The notes beneath the pieces were generated by a model. The model saw only the letters and a list, made by a program, of their open reading frames with translations, had not been told where the DNA came from and searched no databases. From NCBI GenBank assembly GCA_030390025.1, contig CM059429.1, positions 139,934,001 to 139,998,000 on the forward strand: a stretch of DNA of 64,000 bases, in the 5' to 3' direction. A program made the position numbers and the translations under genes. Numbering within the stretch: position 1 is the stretch's first letter; every line of letters starts with the position of its first letter. The stretch comes from Squalus acanthias (lineage: Eukaryota). Below are positions 3,998 to 46,668 of this stretch, piece by piece.

Positions 3998-5938
3998 CAA
4001 CAACAACAACAACAACTTGTATTTATATAGCGCCTTTAACGTAGTAAAACGTCCCAAGGCGCTTCACAGGAGTATTAAAAGGCAAAAGATTTGACACCGA
4101 GCCACATAAGGAGAAATTATGGCAGGTGACCAAAAGCTTGGTCAAAGAGGTAGGTATTAAGGAGCGTCTTAAAGGAGGAAAGAGAGGTAGAGAGGCGGAA
4201 AGGTTTAGGCAGGGAATTCCTGAGCTTAGCGCCTTGGCAACAGAAGGCATGGCTACCAATGGTTGAGCGATTATAATCAGGGATGCTCAAGAGGGCAGAA
4301 TTAGAGGAGCACAGATATCTGGGGCGGGCGAGGGGGGAGGTGGGGCTGAAGGAGATTACAGAGATAGGGAAGGGCGAGGCCATGGAGGGATTTGACAACA
4401 AGGATGAGAATTTTGAAATCGAGGCATTGCTTAATCCGGAGCCAATGTAGGTCAGCAAGCACAGGGGTGATGGGTGAATGGGACTTGGTGCAAGTTAGGA
4501 CATGGGCAGCCGAGTTTTGGATCACCTCAAGTTTACATAGGGTAGAATGTGGGAGGCCAGCCTGGAATGCGTTGGAATAGTCAAGTCTAGAGGTAATAAA
4601 GGCATGGATAAGGGTTTCAGCAGCGGATGAGCTGAGGCAAGGGCGGAGACGGGAGATATTACGGAGGTGGAAATAGGCGGTCTTTGTTCTGCTGCGGATA
4701 TGTGGTCGGAAGCTCATTTCAGGGTCAAATATGACACCAAGGTTGCAAACAGTGTGGTTCAGCCTCAGACAGATGTTAGGGAGAGGGATGAAGTCAGTTG
4801 CTAGGGAACGGAGTTTGTGGCAGGGACCAAAAACAATGGCTTCAGTCTTCCCAATATTTAATTGGAGAAAATTTCTGCTCATCCAGAACTGGATGTGGGA
4901 CAAGCAGTCTGACAATTTAGAGACCGTGGAGGGGTCGAGAGAAGAGGTAGTGAGGTAGAGCTGGGTGTTGTCCGTGTGCATGTGGAAACTGATGCTGTGG
5001 TTTTGGATGATGTTGTCAAGGGGCAACATGTAGATGAGAAATAGGAGGGGGCCAAGGATAGATCCTTGGGGGACACCAGAGGTAACAATGCGGGAGCGGG
5101 AAGAGAAGCCGTTGCAGGTGATTCTCTGGCTATGATTAGATAGATAAGAATGGAACCAGGCAAGGGTAGTCCCACCCAGTTGGACGACGGTGGAGAGGCG
5201 TTGGAGAAGGATGGAGTGGTCAACTGTGTTAAAGGCTGCAGACAAGTCAAGAAGGACGAGGAGCGACAGTTTACCTTTGTCACAGTCACAAAGGATGATT
5301 TGTGACTTTAATGAGAGCCGTTTCAGTACTGTGGCAAGGGCGGAAACCTGATTGGAGGGATTCAAACATGGAATAGCGGGAAAGATGGGTACGGATTTGG
5401 GAGGTGACAACATGTTCAAGGACTTTGGAGAGGAAAGGGAGGTTGGAGATGGGGCGGTAGTTTGCAAGGACGGAGGGGGTCAAGGGTTGGTTTTTTGAGG
5501 AGAGGGGTGATGATGGCAGATTTGAGGGAGAGGGGGACAGTACCTGAGGAGAGAGAACCGTTAACAATATCAGCTAACATGGGAGCCAGAAAAGGAAGTT
5601 GGGTGGTCAGCAGTTTGGTGGGAATAGGGTCAAGGGAGCAGGAGGTGGGTCTCATGGACAAGATGAGCGCGGAAAGGTCATGAGGGGAGATTGGAGAGAA
5701 ACTGGAGAAAGATGTGAGTTCAGGGCTAGGGCAGGGGGGAGCCTTAGAGGAAGTTTAGCCTGGTGGGCTAGGGGAAAGAAGGGAAGTGGCAGAGACAGCT
5801 GAAGGGATGGTCTCAATCTTAGAGACAAAGAAGTCCATGAGCTCCTCACACTTATTGTCGGAGGTGAGGATGGAGGAGACAGGGGAGAGGGATTTAAGAA
5901 GATGGTTAGCAGTAGAGAATAGAAGCCGGGGTTTATCT
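3998..5938 (-). mobile_element. 5'-truncated, frameshifted L2 LINE (~1.9 kb, RT domain)
   Basis: Overlapping ORFs give SCSLDPIPTKLL, NYRPISNLPFLSKVLE, QSGFRPCHSTETAL, LLDLSAAFNTVDH and [10 protein letters not shown]. The YADD box has decayed to HTDN. (caa)n tail at 3998-4016. Confidence 0.95.
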
Positions 5939-17585: not shown

Positions 17586-18962
17586 CATAGAAGCATAGAA
17601 GATAGGAGCAGGAGTAGGCCATTCGGCCCCTCGAGCCTGCTCCGCCATTTAATGAGATCATGGCTGATCATCCAAATTCAGTACCCTGTCCCTGCTTTCT
17701 CCCCATATCCCTTGATCCCTTTAGCCTTAAGAAATATATCTATCTCTTTCTTGAATATATTTAATGAATTGGCCTCAACTGCCTTCTGTGGTAGAGAATT
17801 CCATAGGTTCACCACTCTCTGGGTGAAGAAATTCCTCCTCATCTCAGTCCTAAATGGCTTACCCCTTATCCTTAGACTGTGACCTCTGGTTCTGGACTAC
17901 CCCGCCATCGGGAACATCCTTCCTGCATCTAGTCTGTCTAGTCCTGTTAGAATTTTATAAGTTTCAATGAGATCCCCTCTCATTCTTCGAAACTCTAGCG
18001 AATATAAGCCTAATCTACCCAATCTCTCTTGCCATCCCAGGTATCAGTCTGGTGAATCTTCGCTGCACTCCCTCCATGGCAAGAACATCCTTCCTCAGAT
18101 AAGGCGACCAAAACTGCACACAATACTCAAGGTGTGGTCTCACCAAGGCCTTGTACAACTGCAGCAAGACATCCTTGCTCTTGTACTCGAATCCTCTCGC
18201 TATGAAGGCCAACATACCATTTGCCTTCTTGACCGCCTGCTGCACCTGCATGCTCACCTTCAGCGACTGGTGCACAAGGACTCCCAGATCTCGTTGCACT
18301 TCCCCTTTTCCCAATCTATTGCCGTTCAGATAATAATCTGCCTTCCTGTTTTTGCCACCAAAGTGGATAACCTCGCATTTATCCACATTATACTGCATCT
18401 GCCATGCATCTGCCCAATCACCCAACCTGTCCAAATCATACTGGAGTTTCTCGGCATCCTCCTCACGGCACACACGCCCACCCAGCTTTGTGTCATCTGT
18501 AAACTTAGAGATATTACATCTAGTTCCCTCGTCTAGATCATTAATATATATTGTGAATAGCTGGGGTCTTAGCACCGATCCCTGTGGTACCCCACTAGTC
18601 ACTGCCTGCCACTTGGAAAAAGACCCGTTTATTCCAACTCTTTGCTTCCTGTCTGCCAACCAATTCTCTATCCAAATCAGTACCTCACCCCCAATCCCAT
18701 GTGCTTTAACTTTGCACACTAATCTCTTATGCGGGACCTTATCGAATGCCTTCTGAAAGTCCAAATACACCACATCCACTGTTTCTCACTTATCTATTCT
18801 ACCAGTTACATCCTCAAAAAATTCCAGTAGATTAGTCAGGCATGATTTCCCTTTTGTAAATCCATGTGGACTTTGTCCGATCCTGTCACTGTTTCCCAAG
18901 TGCTCTCCTATTCCATCTTTTATAATGGACTCTAGCATTTTGCCCACTACTGATGTCAGGCT
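17586..18962 (-). mobile_element. 5'-truncated CR1 LINE (RT domain and 3' UTR)
   Basis: ORF 18015..18779 reads DVVYLDFQKAFDKVPH...GVPQGSVL..LFTIYINDL..KFTDDTKL..LVRPHLEYCVQFWSP. ORF 18786..19046 contains HGFTKGKSCLTNLLEFFE. Confidence 0.95.
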
Positions 18963-22380: not shown

Positions 22381-23226
22381 GGGCGCGATTTTGCCAGCCC
22401 TGGGGAGGCGGGTTTGGAGGCGGAACTGCCGGGAAAATGGCAGAATCTGGGGGCGGGTACCCATCCCGCCCCCAACCCGCCTCGGTGCCATCTTCCCAGG
22501 AGGCGGGTAGCCGACTCGCGCCGGGTCCCGTCTCCTCGAGGTGGGAAGGGGATTAGTGCCAATTAACTGCCTGTTAACAGGTAGTTAACAGGCAGTTTTT
22601 TTGAGAATCCCTATTTTCAGCCCTGAAGTGTGGGCTTCCCGAAGGCTCCGAACCTCGCCAGGGTCAGCGAGGTGAGCCGTGGGTCTGCGGGGGTCGGAGG
22701 GGCCGAGATGTCCGGTGTGCAGGTGAGTGATGGGTGCATGTGTGCAGAGGTAAGTGTGTGAGGTGTGTGTAAAGTGTTTTAATAAGTTTTACTTACCTTT
22801 ACTTCTTCCTGCAGGCTTCCTCCCTTCAGGTCTCGGGAGTCCCTCAGCTCACCGGCACAGAAAGCAGAATGGCCGCTGAACTGTCAAAAGCTGCAGCCTT
22901 CTGCTTTCTGCTCAGGAAGGCTTTCTAACTGAGTCTTGAGTAAAGACTCAACTTAGAAGACAGATTGTCAATGTTTGACAGCTTCACAGAACTGTCAAAC
23001 GATGACAATTCATCTGTCAAAAGATCTTGACAGATGAAACGTCACTCGCTGACGTCACCTGTAACCGGCTTTCCCTTAATTGGCCTGCTAAGCCCGCTGG
23101 GCGGGCTTAATAAGGTCAATCAAGGGAAATTAGCGTGGGTTGGCCACAAGTCGATGGAGGCGGGACTAAAATACCAACAAGTGGGAGTCCCGCCTCCAAA
23201 AACTCCCCATTGAGAAAATCCAGCCC
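22381..23226 (+). mobile_element. Non-autonomous Harbinger-type element (MITE), copy A
   Basis: Imperfect TIRs gggcgcgattttg... / ...gaaaatccagccc. CpG-rich. Second copy inverted at 24527-25376. TIR and subterminal motifs resemble the Myb-bearing element at 27452. Confidence 0.8.
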
Positions 23227-23434
23227 TCCAGTATCCTGTAGTAACATTTCCTTTCTGCCTACATGGGTGATGATGAAGGGTTGCACATGAATTGCTAACC
23301 TATCGTTTTCTTTCTGGTGCTGATTGACCTATTCTATTTTCCAAAATGTTATATTTTTCCTTATATTTCTCGTGTTCTTAGTTTCCTTTATCCCTGAATA
23401 TTGTCTAATGAGATTTCTTTCATTGTGTTTGCAG

Positions 23435-23660
23435 AGTCCCAGCTGAGCTCAGATCAGGAGCAGAGCCCAGGAGCAGAGGGTGAGAGCCCAACCCAACATA
23501 CAGCCTGTTCCTACAGCTCTCCCACAGAACTCACTTCCAACTCCACCTCATCTCTCCCAAACTCCTCCATGGATGAGATTCAGATGGAATTGCAATGTGC
23601 CGATCTTTGGAAAAGATTTCATGACATTGGCACCGAAATGATTATTACCAAAGCTGGAAG
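23435..23660 (+). CDS. tbx15: T-box transcription factor TBX15, coding exon 2 (N-terminal linker and T-box start)
   Basis: ttgtgtttgcag|AGTCCC...GGAAG|gtacca. Encodes ...SSMDEIQMELQCADLWKRFHDIGTEMIITKAGR; ELQCADLWKRFHDIG is TBX15-diagnostic. An alternative in-frame acceptor would start the exon at 23453. Confidence 0.95.
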
Positions 23661-23769
23661 GTACCAAACAAGATTTCCTTTTGATCATTTAAATCTGTGC
23701 CATTTTAGTAGACCTCAGAATGAAGCCCTATTTCAAGGCTTAATTTTCCCAATGATATTCATGCTAAAC

Positions 23770-24255
23770 TACCAAGCTCCTCCTTACATCATTTCCAGTT
23801 TTTCCAGAACTGTACCTCTTGTCTCCTATCACTCAACGTTTGCTGACCACCGTTGGCTCCCCAACCCACAGAGCATTGATTTTAAAATTTTTGTTTTCAA
23901 ATTGTTCCGTGGCTTTTCTTTACCCTTCCTCATCAATCTTCTGCAGCCTTATGTTCCATCATGCAGCCTTTGCTCTTCTGACTCTGGACTGCTCTTTGTG
24001 TCCCCCTCCTTCTGCTCCACTGTCGGCAGCAAAGCCTTTAGTCACCACAAACCTACACTCTGAAATTCCCTCCCTAAACTCCTCCTAGTAACCTGTTTCC
24101 CCACTTTCAAAAGCCTCTGTAAAACCTACCTTTTTGTCTGTTCTTTTGGTTACTTTCTGTAATTGCTCTCACCTTCTGCTTGCTGAGCTCCAATTTCCTG
24201 TAAAGTGGGTTGGAATGTTGTTAAAGGTGCTGCATAAGTGTGCGTTGTTGTTGCT
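23770..24255 (+). mobile_element. Old L2 3' fragment
   Basis: Translates ADHRWLPNPQSIDFKIFVFK..LINLLQPY..TVGSKAFS (L2 ORF2 C-terminus). Ends aaaggtgctgcataagtgtgcgttgttgttg. Confidence 0.8.
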
Positions 24256-24289
24256 GCAAATAGCTTCAGCATCCTATGTTAGGAAGCTA

Positions 24290-24518
24290 TGGTTCCCACT
24301 CTTGATTACCATCTAGTAAGCACTGTTGTAAGTGTATGTGTCTGGAGATAGCGAGTGAGGATAGGATTAGGCTGGGTTGTGATCCACTCCACAATCGAAT
24401 CACCTGCTAACACTCACTGTAAATGATGGCCATGGGCAGGGTAACAGAAGGCCACAGTGCCTGTTGAGCTGTACCCCAGCAAGGAATCCATGTCTTCAGG
24501 ACAGGAGAGAAGAGAAAA
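24290..24518 (+). mobile_element. Old AmnSINE2-like SINE, 3' part
   Basis: gtgaggataggattaggctgggttgtgat...acactcactgt...gtaccccagcaaggaatccatgtcttcaggacaggagagaagagaaaa. Confidence 0.6.
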
Positions 24519-24526
24519 GTTCAAAT

Positions 24527-25376
24527 GGCGATTTTGTCAATGGGTGCGCGTTGGAGGCGGGACTGCTGCTTGTCTGGTCGTTGTCCCACCTCCATCGATT
24601 TGTGGCCAACCCACGCTATTTTCGCTTGATTGACCTAGTTAAGCACGCCCAGCGGGCTTAGCAGGCCAATTAAGGGAAAGCCGGTTGCAGAGCACGTCAA
24701 CGTATGACGTTTCATCTGTCAAAAATTTTTGACAGATGATTTGTCATCATTTGACAGCTCTGTAAAGCTGTCAAACAGTGACATTCTCTGCAGTTTGATG
24801 AGGTCTTGCATACAAGACCCCATCAAATTTCTTTCTTTAACAGAATTGAGATGTTTGTTGCATCTGAGAATGAAACGGCCATCTCTCATCTGCAACACGG
24901 AGGTCCAAGACTCTTCGCATACACACCGATTGAAGCCTGCAGGAAGAAACAAAGGTAAGTACACTTTTAAAAACAGTTTGCACTTACCTCAGATACTCAC
25001 CTCTACACTCTTGCACTCATCACTTACCTCCACAGCACACTTTTGCACCCCCCCCCCCCCCCGACCCCCACAGACCCAGTACTCGCTGAGCTGAGCTGGC
25101 GGGTTTTGGAGCCTTCGGGAAGCCCGCACTTGTGAGGGTAAAAAGGGGATAATCCTATTTTCCGCCTGTTAACTACATGTTAACAGGCAGTTAATAGGCT
25201 TTAATCCCTTCCCGCCTCCAAGGAGATGGGACCCGGCGCGGGACAACTACCCGCCTCCTGGGAAGATGGCATGGAGGCGGGTTGGGGGTGGGTTGTGCAC
25301 CCGCCCCCAAATTCTGCCATTTTCCCAGCAGTCCCGCCTCCATACCCACCTCCCCAGGGCTGGCAAAATCGCCCCC
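24527..25376 (-). mobile_element. Non-autonomous Harbinger-type element (MITE), copy B, inverted relative to copy A
   Basis: Reverse complement of 25376-25247 matches 22381-22510 at about 118/130 positions (manual count). The other end (24527-24780) matches 22970-23226. Confidence 0.85.
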
Positions 25377-27451
25377 AAACAGTTGAAAATGTTCACCTTT
25401 TGTTACACTTATTGCATTCTCAGAATTATAGTACAGTACATATTTTTCAAGAAATACCCTTGGTTTCCCCCGCGACCCCCACCCCCTCCGACCCCCCACC
25501 ACCCTTTCTACATGGAAGACTTCATGTGAATTTAGCAGCCTAGCCAAGAATTAACAAAACTTGGATTCATGAGATTTGAAGCTGCCAACATCTGGTTAGG
25601 AATACAGGGATTGAAAAGGAAACTATTCAAATCATAGTTCCTAGGAATTAAATTGTTGAAATAATTTACTTAACCTTTTCCCCCAATATTTACATTTTTG
25701 GAGATGATTTATTAATAGAAATGTTGATCCGAGTTTTATGGCTTTATTTTTTGGCTTAAGCCTTTTGGAGGCCGTGTTTTAAAAGTCCACAGACTGCGAT
25801 CCTGGTTGTTAGGCTGGGATGGCACCCGCCTGCGCTCTCCAGCACTGATCGCACCACAGTTTGCAGGGTCTGCAGGAGGACCCCTCATTTGCATGGGATC
25901 AGTGGGTGCCCACGTCACAATGTGTGAAGCTTTGGTGCCCGTGTGCCCCATGCAGCTGGAAAATACCCCGCCTGTCTGCCACTGGGTGACAGCCAAAGCC
26001 TTCCTCCTCCCTGATACTCCAGCCATCTCCCCTTCACCCCCCTGTGTAAGGTTTTTGGCAAAAAAAGAAATTTGTGCCTTTCTTCAGGAGTCCAGGCTGT
26101 TTCCCTTGCCTGAACTGACACCACCGCACCCCCCCCCCCCCCCAACCCCCCACCCCGACCCCTGCCAATTCAGGGCCAGTGTGTATTCCTTCTGGGTTAG
26201 GTGTTAGGATCTCCCAAGTAATGCTCTTTTCACAAAGTATTACTTCTCTACAGTATTTTCCTCAACAAAACTTAAAGGATTAATCCTAGTCCAAACAAGG
26301 CACGCTCCTGAGTCAGGAAGTGTGCGTTGTTGCACATGCATCTGGATTCTGCAATAAATCTGTCATCCATTTTAACCCTATTCACCAATTCCATTGATTA
26401 AACTGCGTTGTTTTAGTTTTTATTCTGAAACTTTCTTTTTCATGAATTGAACTCCTTCTCTCAATATGCACTTATTTCATTCTCCTCTATAGAACTCCAT
26501 CCCCACCAACATGATGCACCATTCCAAGACCGAAAGATTTGGCAGGTGACCTGCTCCCAGACCACTGTTTATGGAGCTCTTCAGCTGCTAGGGAAAGTAT
26601 CAGGGAACTTTGAGTTGACTTGGCCCCTGATGTTACTGCCCTGTCCAGATGGCTCAGCCGAAATGAGGAATAAATAAGGAATCACTGACAAGACAGATCT
26701 ACCATTCTGTGTAATAACCTATTAGTGCTCCAACATGTTGCACCACCCCCACCAGGCATCATACAGGCCCTCGCCAAAAAAACCTCCATGAACCTGATGG
26801 AACAACTTTCATCTTGCAAGTAAATAATTTGAACATGGAATTACTCTGAAAATGTTTTCAAATGAGTCAGTGAAATATAACTGGAAAAGGATTGTGAAAT
26901 AAACCACACAGATGTTCCTGACCATTTCAAGGAATCATTTTCAGAATCTTACCCTGCACTGATTTCATTCAGAACTAAATATAAGCGTATAACATTGAAA
27001 AGTTTAAAGGGGAAGGAAATCCCTGGGGCAGTCAAAGTTAATAAAAATAGGCCTTTAATTCCCCTCCCTAAACTGTTTCTGCCATATAATTTCACTTTCA
27101 CTTATTCCCTTGTTGAAATTTTTTTTGACTGAGGGCAAAGGCGAAAATGCAAACTGGCATTAAATTTCATTGCAATGAATTCTGAGCACACAACTCTCCT
27201 ACATTATGCATACATGTCACCACTTATTCTGTGCTCGACAGGCCATATGTAAAATGACTGGAACTCAAAAACCCTTTGAAAGTGAATTTGAATCTGTACA
27301 AGAATGGACAGCTTGCAAATCAGGTTCAAACAGAATTAACCCTTCTTGGACTCACCGACTTTCAATTACATAGAAATAAGTTTCCCTTTGTATACTTCGC
27401 TAAGGTGCAGAAACATAATGTTGGCTATTACCAAATACAAGGAAACACCAT

Positions 27452-29165
27452 GGGGCTGGATTTTTCCAACCTCGGTGGGTCCGGGGCGGGCGACGTCGGT
27501 GGCGTGTGGGGACCCCGCATCTGTGTCGATCCCGGCCTCCAACAAGATATTCCGCTGATGGGGCTTGTTAAGCCCACCCTGCGAGGTTCCCGGCCAATTA
27601 ATAGGAAGCGAGTCTGATGACGTCATTTGATGACGCCGTCATCAGCCGGTTTCCTTAAAGGGACCATGTTCACAATCATTTTGACAGTTGTGTTGTCAGT
27701 GTTCTGCAGCATTGGGGTGCTGCAAACACTGACAAGCACTGCACAAAGGTGAACAGCTGCTTCCGGGCTCTCCCATTGCTCCCTCCATATGCTTTTGGAT
27801 GGAGTCACAGCATGCAGGGAGGTTCTCCCAAGACACCTCCCCAGGAGACCAATGCAGCCTGGTTGCATGTTGCACAGGAGGGCACAAGCAGGGATGTCAT
27901 CAGGAGTCCCTGGCTGCAGTGGAGCAAACCTTTCAATGATCTCAGTAGATCACGAAATATTACTGCAAAGCCACACTCAGCCTCATCCTGCTGTGCCACT
28001 CATCACATCCCCATCACTCTGCCTTCCCTAACCTACTCCTGCACATCTTGACTCACACCAACTTACCTTACACTGCCACCCATCCCTCTCTATCTACATT
28101 ATCACTTCCCCATCTCACTAGCCACCCCTCACACTCACCCTCATCCTAGTGCAATCATTCAAACTAACAACACACAAGGGTAGGCACTTTGCGCTCTTGG
28201 ACAGATTTGTGTGCGCCTTTGGGAAGTGTCTTAGTGAGTTCCAGTGAATGGTGAGACATAATTTCACCCCCCCCCCCCCCCCCCACAATGGTGATGAGTG
28301 TGAAAGGAATGGCTTGGACATTGTAGGGATGCTTTATGGTGCTGGTGTGGGGTGGTGCCAACCTGGTGCATCATGTTGCAGCCAGGGTGTACAGCATCAA
28401 GTGAAGTAAATCTGGCCATGGTGAGGCCATCGCTGGCGTCCCGGGCAGCAATGTGCACGCGTGATGATGCCCTGTGTTCAGTGCAGCATCAGTTGATTGC
28501 AGAGAAGGTTGGTGTGGATATTAGTGCTGCTGGAGTGCCTGGTGATACTGGTGTTGGGGCTGATCGTTTTGGGATTCTGAGGACCAAGGTGAGATTTTTT
28601 TCAAGGGCACTGATGCGGATGGAATAGATGGCAGGTGAGATTGAGATAACAAAAGTAATCTGTCAATGTTGAGATAGGTTGTTCCAAGGAGGTGACAGTG
28701 GATAGAGAGATTACTCCAAACACTTCAAAAGTGCATAAAGCTCAAAAGTGGGTTCCAAATCATTGATGCTCCAGCTTCTAAGATTGGGAAGTGAACAGCT
28801 GTGAAATGGTAGGTTTTAGACCACTTTTACAGCTTTCACCTATTCACAGCAATTCATAGTCATTGAGAGCCCGACATACTTACCTGACGTGATAGCCACT
28901 CTCCAGGAACCTCGTTGAAAACCTGGGAAAATGGTAAGTACATGGGAAAATGGTTCTTAACTACTTTTTAAGAAGGTTTTAACTATCTAAATTGGCTGAC
29001 CCGCCGCTTGGTGTCGGGTCTGTTCAGGGATGACAGACCCGACATTTGGGAAACTGACAAGGAGGCGGGTTTACAGCGGGATACTGACCCGCTGTCAATC
29101 TTTATGATTTTGACAGCGGACCCGCCTCCAAACCCGCACTCTAAGCGCCGGCAAAATTCAGCCCC
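27452..29165 (+). mobile_element. Internally deleted PIF/Harbinger-superfamily DNA transposon (Myb/SANT remnant and transposase C-terminus)
   Basis: TIRs ggggctggatttttcc / ggcaaaattcagcccc, flanked by AT on both sides. Plus strand 27780-27950 gives LHMLLDGVTACREVL/PPQETNAAWLHVAQEGTSRDVIRSPWLQWSKPFNDLSRS (Myb_DNA-bind_5-like). Minus strand ~28400-28460 gives HIAARDASDGLTMARFT, resembling a HARBI1-like C-terminus. Confidence 0.8.
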
Positions 29166-30177: not shown

Positions 30178-30279
30178 GCGAATGTTCCCAGCAATGAGAG
30201 TGAAGGTCACAGGGCTGGATCCTCATCAGCAATACTACATAGCAATGGATATCATCCCTGTCGATAACAAGAGATACCG
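30178..30279 (+). CDS. tbx15: TBX15 coding exon 3 (T-box)
   Basis: ttttattcacag|GCGAATG...TACCG|gtatgt. 102 bp, phase 2-2. [34 protein letters not shown]. Confidence 0.98.
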
Positions 30280-31823: not shown

Positions 31824-32242
31824 CAAGCAACAATCATCAAATTTAAAATTCTCATCTGCGTCTTCAAGTCTCTCCATAGCCTTGCCCCTCCCAATCCTTG
31901 TAACCACCTCCAGCCATATAACCCACTGAGAACTCTGCGTTCCTCGAACTCTGGCCTCTTATGCATGCTCCACTCTTTTCGCCCCACCATTGGTGGCCGT
32001 GCCTTCAGCTGTCTAGGCCTTAACCTCTAGAATTCCCTTCACAAACCTCTCCACCTCTCTCTCCACCTCTCTCTCCACCTTTAACACCCCCCTTGAAAGC
32101 TACCTCTTTGACCAAGCTTTTAGTCACCCCAACTAATTTCTCTTTCTTTGGCTCAGTGTCAAATTTTGTTTGATTACGCTCCTGTGAAACACCTTGGGAC
32201 ATTTTCCTCCATTAAAGGCACTATATAAATGCAAATTATTGT
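31824..32242 (+). mobile_element. L2 3' fragment
   Basis: tttaaaattctcatc...ccttgcccctccc...ccaccattggtggccgtgccttcagctgtctaggcc...aaaggcactatataaatgcaa. Homologous to the reverse complement of 1636-2060. Confidence 0.85.
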
Positions 32243-39656: not shown

Positions 39657-40119
39657 TTGTGGAAGTCAAGGAGCAGGACTGGTCCGATACACTGTGTGTA
39701 TACAGCACGTTCCGCATTGTGGAATTCAGGGAGCAGTACTGGTCAGTGTATATACAGCACGTTCCGCATTGTGGAAGTCAGGGAGCAGTACTGGTCAGAT
39801 ACACTGTGTGTATACAGCACGTTCCGCATTGTGGAAGTCAGGGAGCAGTACTGGTCAGTGTATATACAGCACGTTCCGCATTGTGGAAGTCAGGGAGCAG
39901 TACTGGTCAGATACACTGTGTGTATACAGCACGTTCCGCATTGTGGAAGTCGGGGAGCAGTACTGGTCAGATACACTGTGTGTATACAGCACGTTCCGCA
40001 TTGTGGAAGTCAGGGAGCAGTACTGGTCAGATACACTGTGTGTATACAGCACGTTCCGCATTGTGGAAGTCAGGGAGCAGTACTGGTCAGATACACTGTG
40101 TGTATACAGCACGTTCCGC
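39657..40119. repeat. Minisatellite, 8 units (60,52,60,52,60,60,60,59 bp)
   Basis: Unit ttgtggaagtcagggagcagtactggtcagatacactgtgtgtatacagcacgttccgca. Units 2 and 4 are 8 bp shorter. Confidence 0.97.
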
Positions 40120-46040: not shown

Positions 46041-46668
46041 TAGAGGGTTTGAGCATAAAAGTAAAGACGTCTTACTGCAATTATATAGGGCCCTGGTGAG
46101 ACCACACCTGGAGTATTGTATACAGCTTTGGTCTCCTTACCTAAGGAAAGATATACTTGCCATAGAGGGAGTGCAACAAAGGTTCACCAGAATGGTTCCT
46201 TGGTTGGGAGAATTGTCCTATGAGGACAGGTTGAGTAGACTAGGCCTATATTCTCTAGAGTTTAGAAGAATGAGAGGTGATCTCATTGAAACATAAAAAA
46301 TTCTTACAGGGCTTGACAGGTTAGATGCAGGGTGGATGTTTCTCCTGGCTGGGGAGTCTAGAACCAGGGGTCACAGTCTCAGAATAAGGGGTTGGCCATT
46401 TAGGACTGAGATGAGGAGAAATTTCTTCACTCAGAGGGTGGTGAATCTTTGGAATTCTCTACCCCAGAGCGCTGTGGATGCTCAGTCGTTGAGTATATTC
46501 AAGACAGAGATCGATAGATTTTTGAATATTAAGAGAATCAAGGGATATGGGGATAGTGCAGGAAAGTGGAGATGAGGTAGAAGATCAGCCATGATCTTAT
46601 TGAATGGCGGAGCAGGCTCGAAGAGCCAAATAGCCTACTCCTGCTCCTATTTCTTATGTTCTTATGTT
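46041..46668 (+). mobile_element. 5'-truncated CR1 LINE nested in L2
   Basis: RGFEHKSKDVLLQLYRALVRPHLEYCIQLWSPYLRKD...RMRGDLIET and SRTRGHSLRI..FFTQRVVNLWNSLP. Tail cctactcctgctcctatttcttatgttcttatg. Confidence 0.95.

What the first reader, a model, noticed from the sequence alone, without database searches (positions are those of the whole stretch)
22381..25376. Inverted pair of ~850-bp MITEs brackets tbx15 exon 2 (candidate circRNA, exon-skipping or editing switch)
Seen: copy A (22381-23226) ends 208 bp before exon 2. Copy B (24527-25376) starts ~870 bp after it and is A's reverse complement (about 118/130 identical in the outer arm, good pairing in the inner ~250 bp, divergent middle). These are the only copies I found in 64 kb. 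Known: inverted intronic repeats such as Alu pairs promote back-splicing, exon skipping and ADAR editing. Inference: the pre-mRNA could loop out exon 2. At 226 or 208 nt its loss shifts the frame and removes the T-box start, giving a transposon-made dosage control on a girdle and dermis regulator. The pair could also act as a composite transposon or an inversion substrate carrying the exon.
Basis: partly seen in the sequence, partly recalled or inferred. Interest (0 to 1): 0.7.

Follow-up and report, generated by a model that had tools for sequence, protein, structure and literature searches.

The report
Chance transposon pair around tbx15 exon
Two copies of a very common small jumping element sit facing each other around one exon of the shark-type tbx15 gene and are predicted to pair in the unspliced RNA, but they likely landed there separately by chance, and any effect on splicing is untested.

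Summary
The pair is real: A 22381-23226 and B 24527-25376 are 655/853 (77%) inverted matches, 208 and 866 nt from tbx15 exon 2 (226 nt, fixed by homology). They belong to two sister subfamilies of a Harbinger-like MITE family with about 45,000 copies (23,000-78,000). They are no more alike than any cross-subfamily pair (76.0% vs 75.7 +/- 0.9%), and their substitutions do not favour pairing, so they read as independent, neutrally drifting insertions. Per exon it is still rare (0 of 40 control exons). An A:B duplex is predicted, and both inner ends are likely present in two related species. The mechanism has precedent at the same identity (TBXT Alu pair, 228/297; laccase2). Against a switch: skipping gives a stop 7 codons into exon 3, the exon is under 300 nt, and its acceptor looks strong. 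Splicing is untested. A composite transposon is rejected. New: B carries a 111-nt in-frame candidate exon with a consensus donor. The scan has noted Harbinger-like MITEs in this genome many times, but no exon-bracketing pair.

The parts
22381..23226 (+). MITE copy A (subfamily A of a Harbinger-like non-autonomous DNA transposon family), in tbx15 intron 1
   Evidence: 40 scored genomic copies at 93-95% besides itself, 7924 first-look candidates; 97.0% to its subfamily majority sequence; own flanks CTA/TCC do not match
22721..22756 (+). Two consensus-like splice donors inside A on the tbx15 sense strand (9/9 and 8/9 match); predicted to be paired with B
   Evidence: Consensus scan and fold state; use untested
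23435..23660 (+). tbx15 exon 2, 226 nt, carries the start of the T-box; alternative in-frame acceptor at 23453
   Evidence: 96% to Heptranchias and 89-93% to other cartilaginous-fish TBX15; tblastn exon map; reading frame
24527..25376 (-). MITE copy B (subfamily B of the same family), in tbx15 intron 2; its inner end lacks the last three bases of the terminal repeat
   Evidence: Best genomic relatives 91-93%, 8752 first-look candidates; ends; 95.2% to its subfamily majority sequence
24844..24954 (+). Candidate cryptic exon inside B: AG acceptor after a pyrimidine run, 9/9 consensus donor, 111 nt, open in the tbx15 frame (37 extra residues at the start of the T-box)
   Evidence: Sequence and translation; the acceptor AG is present in 20 of 20 B-type copies and the donor GT in 19 of 20, so it is a family trait; use untested
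27452..29165 (-). Related 1.7-kb element with the same type of terminal repeats, same orientation as B, in intron 2; only its ends resemble A/B
   Evidence: Profile hits of 53-60 bits at both ends; termini; relatives in random stretches
30178..30279 (+). tbx15 exon 3 (102 nt), the acceptor a skipped transcript would use

Best explanation
A and B are copies from two sister subfamilies of an abundant Harbinger-like MITE family that likely inserted independently and by chance on either side of tbx15 exon 2; they are predicted to pair in the pre-mRNA, and this likely yields at most minor by-products (A-to-I edits in the arms, a little skipped or circular RNA) rather than a selected switch. Shown: family, copy density, subfamily split, exon position, frameshift on skipping. 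Predicted: the duplex. Inferred: independent insertion, neutrality, and that skipped transcripts (stop 7 codons into exon 3, exons 4-8 downstream) would be removed by nonsense-mediated decay.
For: Density: 13 copies over 150 bits (10 over 400) in 12 of 100 random 10-kb stretches; at 12 per Mb about 45,000 copies (95% 23,000-78,000) and about 350 inverted pairs within 1.3 kb genome-wide; 6-8 bracketed exons under uniform spacing, 25-33 with the four-fold clustering seen (the 150,000-200,000 internal exons are my assumption). 1 of 48 other copies has an inverted family neighbour within 1.5 kb. Any family: 10 of 100 random stretches hold an inverted pair at least as strong as A/B, 7 with a loop up to 3 kb. 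Two subfamilies: within-A 93.7%, within-B 93.5%, between 75.7%; this A vs this B 76.0%, matched or exceeded by 40% of other A x B pairs. Transitions at shared positions: A 4 keep pairing vs 4 break it, B 6 vs 9; other copies average about 6.5 vs 8. B is further from its majority sequence than all 19 relatives. Inverted Alu pairs flank many constitutive human exons too, and fold energy barely separates skipped from constitutive exons (d = -0.12); only weak-acceptor exons responded (PMC13019027, section 21). Exon 2 has a pyrimidine-rich acceptor by a crude count. Only exons of 300 nt or more circularised efficiently between laccase2 repeats (PMC4617980, passages).
Against: Per exon the arrangement is uncommon: 0 of 40 kinase exons are bracketed at this strength within 4.9 kb (best 434 bits, 4.2-kb loop), 0 of 5 other tbx15 exons, and only 1 of 100 random stretches has such a pair with a loop of 1.3 kb or less. 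The duplex is strongly favoured in silico (-1522 kcal/mol for the 3-kb region vs -414, -368 and -314 folded apart; 603 A-B pairs). 77% identity was enough for TBXT exon 6 skipping (228/297, PMC10901737). Both inner ends appear retained in two relatives 3-5% diverged. The exon 2 donor is the weakest of five tbx15 donors scored (6/9). The selection tests rest on 8 and 15 transitions and have little power.
Confidence: 0.72

Rival explanations
1. TBXT-like switch: the A:B stem loops out exon 2 at a substantial rate, producing NMD-bound transcripts and/or a 226-nt circle, and so tunes Tbx15 dose in this shark lineage.
For: Same identity as the AluY-AluSx1 pair of TBXT (76.8% in both; and PMC10901737) but nearly three times longer; predicted duplex; long flanking introns of 34.5 and 6.5 kb, like laccase2 exon 2 (PMC4617980); weak-looking donor; inner ends likely shared with two relatives; 0 of 40 control exons so bracketed.
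Against: No excess A-B similarity or pairing-preserving change; several to tens of such exons expected by chance; the skip is out of frame, unlike TBXT exon 6 (PMC10901737); exon under 300 nt; each element folds strongly on itself and A is transcribed 1.3 kb before B, which would compete (inference).
Confidence: 0.13
2. The relevant feature is splice signals inside the MITE: B offers a 111-nt in-frame cassette exon that would put 37 residues into the T-box, and pairing with A would bury its donor, so the pair would act by masking or releasing a cryptic exon rather than by looping out exon 2.
For: Acceptor at 24843 and 9/9 donor at 24955, better than any of five real tbx15 donors scored (6-7/9); open frame in phase with exon 2; donor fully paired with A in the predicted fold. 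Weak hint only: one 141-nt contig of a run of unknown kind aligns to 24851-24954, ends at the donor and has 37 unaligned letters before it, but with 10 differences it is probably another copy.
Against: The signals are a family trait, so thousands of intronic copies carry them and are tolerated; in the predicted fold the acceptor pairs locally, not with A; no MaxEnt-type score could be run.
Confidence: 0.08
3. A + exon 2 + B is a composite transposon or an inversion substrate.
For: Outer ends are terminal repeats of one family, and 150 scored DDE_Tnp_4 matches, most with long open frames, exist in the genome.
Against: Different subfamilies; outer flanks CTA and AAA do not match; exon 2 sits at its orthologous place and was found once at high identity; longest exact A-B match is 41 nt at 77% identity; no transposase locus with these ends was found. 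An inversion would destroy a conserved gene (inference).
Confidence: 0.02

Closest known systems
AluY-AluSx1 pair flanking TBXT exon 6 in hominoids (Xia et al. 2024, PMC10901737; passages and Discussion read)
   Same: T-box gene; two separately inserted elements of different subfamilies in the introns either side of one exon; 228/297 = 76.8% identity vs 655/853 = 76.8% here; predicted stem-loop.
   Different: There skipping was shown, was in frame, spared the DNA-binding domain and depended on each Alu. Here the elements are DNA-transposon MITEs, the arms are about 850 nt, skipping would be a frameshift at the T-box start, and no RNA product is shown.
DNAREP1_DM pair flanking Drosophila laccase2 exon 2 (Kramer et al. 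2015, PMC4617980; passages read)
   Same: Non-Alu transposon pair close to exon 2, 69-75% identical, long flanking introns, lineage-restricted.
   Different: The circle is abundant and was shown to need pairing; only exons of 300 nt or more circularised efficiently, while this exon is 226 nt.
Inverted Alu pairs genome-wide (Denisko et al. 2026, PMC13019027; abstract, passages, section 21) and short intronic repeats (Liang and Wilusz 2014, PMC4201285; abstract, section 15)
   Same: Inverted repeats flanking exons are common, are enriched at skippable exons, and inverted DNA-transposon repeats sufficed for circularisation at human GCN1L1.
   Different: The effect was mainly seen at weak-acceptor exons, and presence of a pair did not guarantee a product. 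Supplements were not read.
Non-autonomous PIF/Harbinger (PHIS) elements, Tourist-like MITEs (PMC9179366 and PMC4482050; passages read)
   Same: Short terminal inverted repeats, 3-bp target duplication, no coding capacity, high copy number.
   Different: No autonomous partner with these ends was found here, so the PHIS group is not fixed; the two copies at tbx15 lack clean duplications.

Membership tests
PIF/Harbinger-type MITE | Terminal inverted repeats | tested here: met
   About 12-nt G-rich start and C-rich end, near-perfect in subfamily B, slightly imperfect in A
PIF/Harbinger-type MITE | 3-bp target site duplication | tested here: met
   Identical 3-mers in 23 of 46 other copies with both ends found (of 48); A and B themselves have no clean duplication
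PIF/Harbinger-type MITE | Short, non-coding, high copy | tested here: met
   846-850 nt; no ORF of 150 aa or more overlaps either copy; about 12 per Mb
PIF/Harbinger-type MITE | Autonomous partner with the same ends, DDE transposase and Myb-like ORF | tested here: inconclusive
   0 of 30 top DDE_Tnp_4 loci hit the family profile within 1.5 kb; in 20 stretches of 10 kb the hits did not form matching ends around the transposase; only 150 of 63,886 candidates were scored
Loop-out exon skipping by inverted repeats (TBXT type) | Inverted pair in the two introns flanking one exon, able to pair | tested here: met
Loop-out exon skipping by inverted repeats (TBXT type) | Skipped isoform observed and dependent on both elements | not testable with these tools
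   Needs exon 1-exon 3 junction reads and deletions
Loop-out exon skipping by inverted repeats (TBXT type) | In-frame skip giving a new protein (as in TBXT) | tested here: not met
   Skip gives a stop 7 codons into exon 3
Loop-out exon skipping by inverted repeats (TBXT type) | Weak 3' acceptor (the responsive class in PMC13019027) | tested here: inconclusive
   Crude count only: 13 of 16 pyrimidines, as high as any tbx15 acceptor scored; donor 6/9; no MaxEntScan available
Repeat-driven single-exon circRNA (laccase2/ZKSCAN1 type) | Complementary flanking repeats and long introns | tested here: met
   Introns 34.5 and 6.5 kb; duplex predicted
Repeat-driven single-exon circRNA (laccase2/ZKSCAN1 type) | Exon of about 300 nt or more | tested here: not met
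   226 nt against the threshold in PMC4617980
Repeat-driven single-exon circRNA (laccase2/ZKSCAN1 type) | Back-splice junction, RNase R resistance | not testable with these tools
   Needs raw total-RNA reads
Composite (Pack-type) transposon | One target duplication outside the pair and cargo moved from elsewhere | tested here: not met
   Outer flanks differ; exon 2 at its orthologous place, one high-identity match

The most novel reading that the evidence does not exclude
A shark counterpart of the ape TBXT story built from DNA-transposon MITEs: the A:B stem, shared by at least three related species, sets Tbx15 dose by looping exon 2 into decay-bound or circular RNA, and at the same time buries a perfect donor in B that would otherwise splice 37 residues into the T-box.
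Probability: 0.1. Interest if true: 0.75.

Novelty: new member of a known kind. Interest (0 to 1): 0.27.

Why it matters
As it stands it is an ordinary product of a repeat-rich 3.7-Gb genome, but a clean test case: an 850-nt, 77% inverted pair close to a coding exon of a developmental gene, of the kind the TBXT paper asked to be searched for. If it changed splicing, it would extend loop-out skipping from primate Alus to DNA-transposon MITEs in cartilaginous fish and tie a lineage-specific insertion to a skeletal regulator (role of Tbx15 in girdle and dermis is recalled, not checked here). The splice signals carried by the whole family may matter more genome-wide than this one pair.

Tried and rejected
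RNA: no RNA holder listed on record (14 holders guessed as RNA). The two laid (X1, X18, contigs only) did not cover exon 2 or exon 3, so back-splicing, skipping, the cryptic exon and editing were not tested; this blank is no evidence either way. Their A>G counts in the repeats (X1 36 A>G, 30 T>C, 43 C>T, 36 G>A) come from many family copies and say nothing on editing. Gene conversion or selection for pairing: not seen, low power. Autonomous partner: not found. The alternative N-terminus of a Mustelus TBX15 isoform has no match in the window. A translated circle: stops in two of three frames limit it to a short product. Control exons: 40 of 60 planned were fetched. About 9.5 kb of intron 1 upstream of the window was not examined, so further competing copies there are not excluded. 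A first skip translation used a wrong exon 1 length (205) and was redone with 202. Literature: searches for TBX15 with circular RNA and back-splicing (11 papers, listing only), shark circRNA (16, 10 listed), MITE with reverse complementary matches (0), Harbinger/shark/MITE (9) and tbx15 in shark or skate (5, 3 listed) showed no title or abstract on this locus; this does not show absence from print.

Full report
Observation. Self-BLAST of the window aligns 22381-23220 with 25376-24530 on opposite strands at 655/853 identity, 614 bits. The exon translates to TBX15, 96% identical to Heptranchias and 84-93% to six other cartilaginous-fish entries, so the genome (3.71 Gb) is shark-like. tblastn places exon 2 at 23435-23660 and exons 3-7 further on in the window; exon 1 is 11 kb upstream of the window and exon 8 just past it. 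Intron 1 is about 34.5 kb and intron 2 is 6.5 kb. A third, 1.7-kb relative with the same type of ends lies at about 27452-29165 in B's orientation.

What the elements are. A has genomic relatives at 93-95% (7924 first-look candidates, 40 scored) and B at 91-93% (8752, 40 scored). Copies have about 12-nt terminal inverted repeats, and 23 of 46 with both ends found have an identical flanking 3-mer. With no ORF, this fits a PIF/Harbinger-type MITE as described in PMC9179366 and PMC4482050 (passages). The genome has 63,886 first-look DDE_Tnp_4 candidates, but no transposase locus with these ends was found in 30 short and 20 long stretches, so the superfamily call rests on ends and duplication. A and B are different subfamilies: 93.7% and 93.5% within, 75.7% between. 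That points to two separate insertions.

Is the arrangement more than chance? I drew 100 random 10-kb stretches from 24 large contigs (small contigs and contig ends beyond the last known hit were not sampled). They hold 13 copies over 150 bits (10 over 400) in 12 stretches. At 12 per Mb that is about 45,000 copies (23,000-78,000) and about 350 inverted pairs within 1.3 kb. The chance for a given exon is about 4e-5; copies cluster about four-fold (7 neighbours in 6 of 48 loci against 1.7 expected; 6 direct, 1 inverted), giving 6-33 bracketed exons if there are 150,000-200,000 internal exons (assumed). For any repeat family, 10 of 100 stretches hold an inverted pair at least as strong, 7 with a loop up to 3 kb and 1 up to 1.3 kb. 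The three pairs I inspected look like LINE fragments (family names recalled); others may be arms of single elements, so these are upper bounds. Against ordinariness: 0 of 40 kinase exons (1 of 40 at 400 bits, 5 of 40 at 200 bits) and 0 of 5 other tbx15 exons are so bracketed. The configuration is rare per exon and expected per genome.

Signs of selection. This A and this B are 76.0% alike, against 75.7 +/- 0.9% for other A x B pairs: no homogenisation. At positions where the subfamilies agree, transitions that keep RNA pairing are not favoured (A 4 vs 4, B 6 vs 9), and B is further from its majority sequence than all 19 relatives. These counts are small. In two runs of other organisms whose contigs cover the introns evenly, single contigs run 23198-24556 (44 other letters in 1354) and 23198-24560 (67 in 1336), aligned to both their ends. 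They reach 29 nt into A and 30-34 nt into B; three of these four junctions fall just short of the tool's 31-letter bar, but an empty site would have left a loose end. So both inner ends are likely shared with relatives 3-5% diverged. That matches the elements' own ages (3.0% and 4.8% from their majority sequences) and is expected of old fixed insertions with or without function.

How it would work. The 3-kb region folds at -1522 kcal/mol with 603 A-B pairs and helices up to 45 bp, against -414, -368 and -314 for the parts alone, so a duplex is predicted. Each arm also folds strongly on itself, and A is made well before B (inference). Skipping exon 2 joins the 202-nt coding exon 1 to exon 3 and stops after six more codons, a likely NMD target, not a new protein. 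The exon 2 acceptor has 13 of 16 pyrimidines and its donor matches 6 of 9, the weakest of five scored (crude counts). Whether any skipped, circular or edited RNA is made was not tested.

On the sense strand B holds an AG acceptor at 24843 and a 9/9 donor at 24955, defining a 111-nt exon that is open in the tbx15 frame and would add 37 residues at the T-box start. A holds two consensus-like donors. All three donors are paired in the predicted A:B stem. The signals are family-wide, so they are not an adaptation at this locus, but they offer a second route to a splicing effect.

Comparison. The closest case is the AluY-AluSx1 pair around TBXT exon 6: a T-box gene, two independent insertions, 228/297 identity, skipping shown and dependent on both (PMC10901737, passages and Discussion). 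That skip is in frame; this one is not. Drosophila laccase2 exon 2 circularises through 69-75% identical DNAREP1_DM repeats, but only exons of 300 nt or more did so efficiently (PMC4617980, passages). Genome-wide, inverted Alu pairs are enriched at skippable exons, yet fold energy barely separates skipped from constitutive exons and the effect centred on weak acceptors (PMC13019027, abstract, passages, section 21). PMC4201285 section 15 notes that a pair does not guarantee a circle. No supplements were read.

Earlier scan notes (unchecked AI notes) describe Harbinger-like MITEs in this genome, including inverted pairs from independent insertions; I did not check that they are the same family. 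A word search found no note on an exon-bracketing pair.

Verdict. Real, well described, and most likely a chance pair of neutral insertions with at most minor RNA by-products (0.72). A functional loop-out or circle switch (0.13) and a cryptic-exon effect (0.08) stay open and are cheap to test; a composite transposon is rejected (0.02). Interest 0.27; new member of a known kind.

Noticed in passing
window 27452-29165: A 1.7-kb relative of the MITE family in intron 2, present at both ends in the two related species and with relatives in 16 of 100 random stretches, about nine of them long. Depending on where its left end is set, its flanks read ATG/CAT (mirror image) or CAT/CAT.
   Followed up: partly
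G000, DDE_Tnp_4 search: 63,886 first-look Harbinger-type transposase candidates, the 150 scored all over cut-off, many with 384-392 aa open frames and several at identical scores, suggesting recent activity. PMC9179366 found no Harbinger in elephant shark and asked for other cartilaginous fish to be checked.
   Followed up: no
family alignment; window 22721-22756 and 24844-24960: The MITE carries consensus splice donors on both strands, each pointing inward from a GC-rich end, and subfamily B carries a complete 111-nt exon-like unit; it may be a remnant of first exons of the parent element and a genome-wide source of cryptic exons or alternative starts.
   Followed up: partly
L002-L050 flanks: Close family neighbours are about four-fold enriched and 6 of 7 are in direct orientation (p = 0.125), a possible hint of loss of close inverted pairs; all six loci are A-type.
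   Followed up: partly
window 17589-18197 and 46042-46662; 1639-2034 / 4009-4417 and 31842-32242: Longer-range inverted LINE fragments (79% over 623 nt; 74% over about 400 nt) also bracket tbx15 exons 2-6 and 2-3; the 256-aa ORF at 18015-18785 reads like a reverse-transcriptase end (label recalled).
   Followed up: no
window 39657-40119: Tandem array with 60- and 112-nt periods in intron 5, 89-93% matches.
   Followed up: no
window 23453: An in-frame alternative acceptor 18 nt into exon 2; a Rhinoraja TBX15 isoform lacks about this stretch.
   Followed up: no
window 25760-26160: A further GC-rich repeat in intron 2 with high multi-copy depth around 26052-26313 in the laid runs; not classified.
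   Followed up: no
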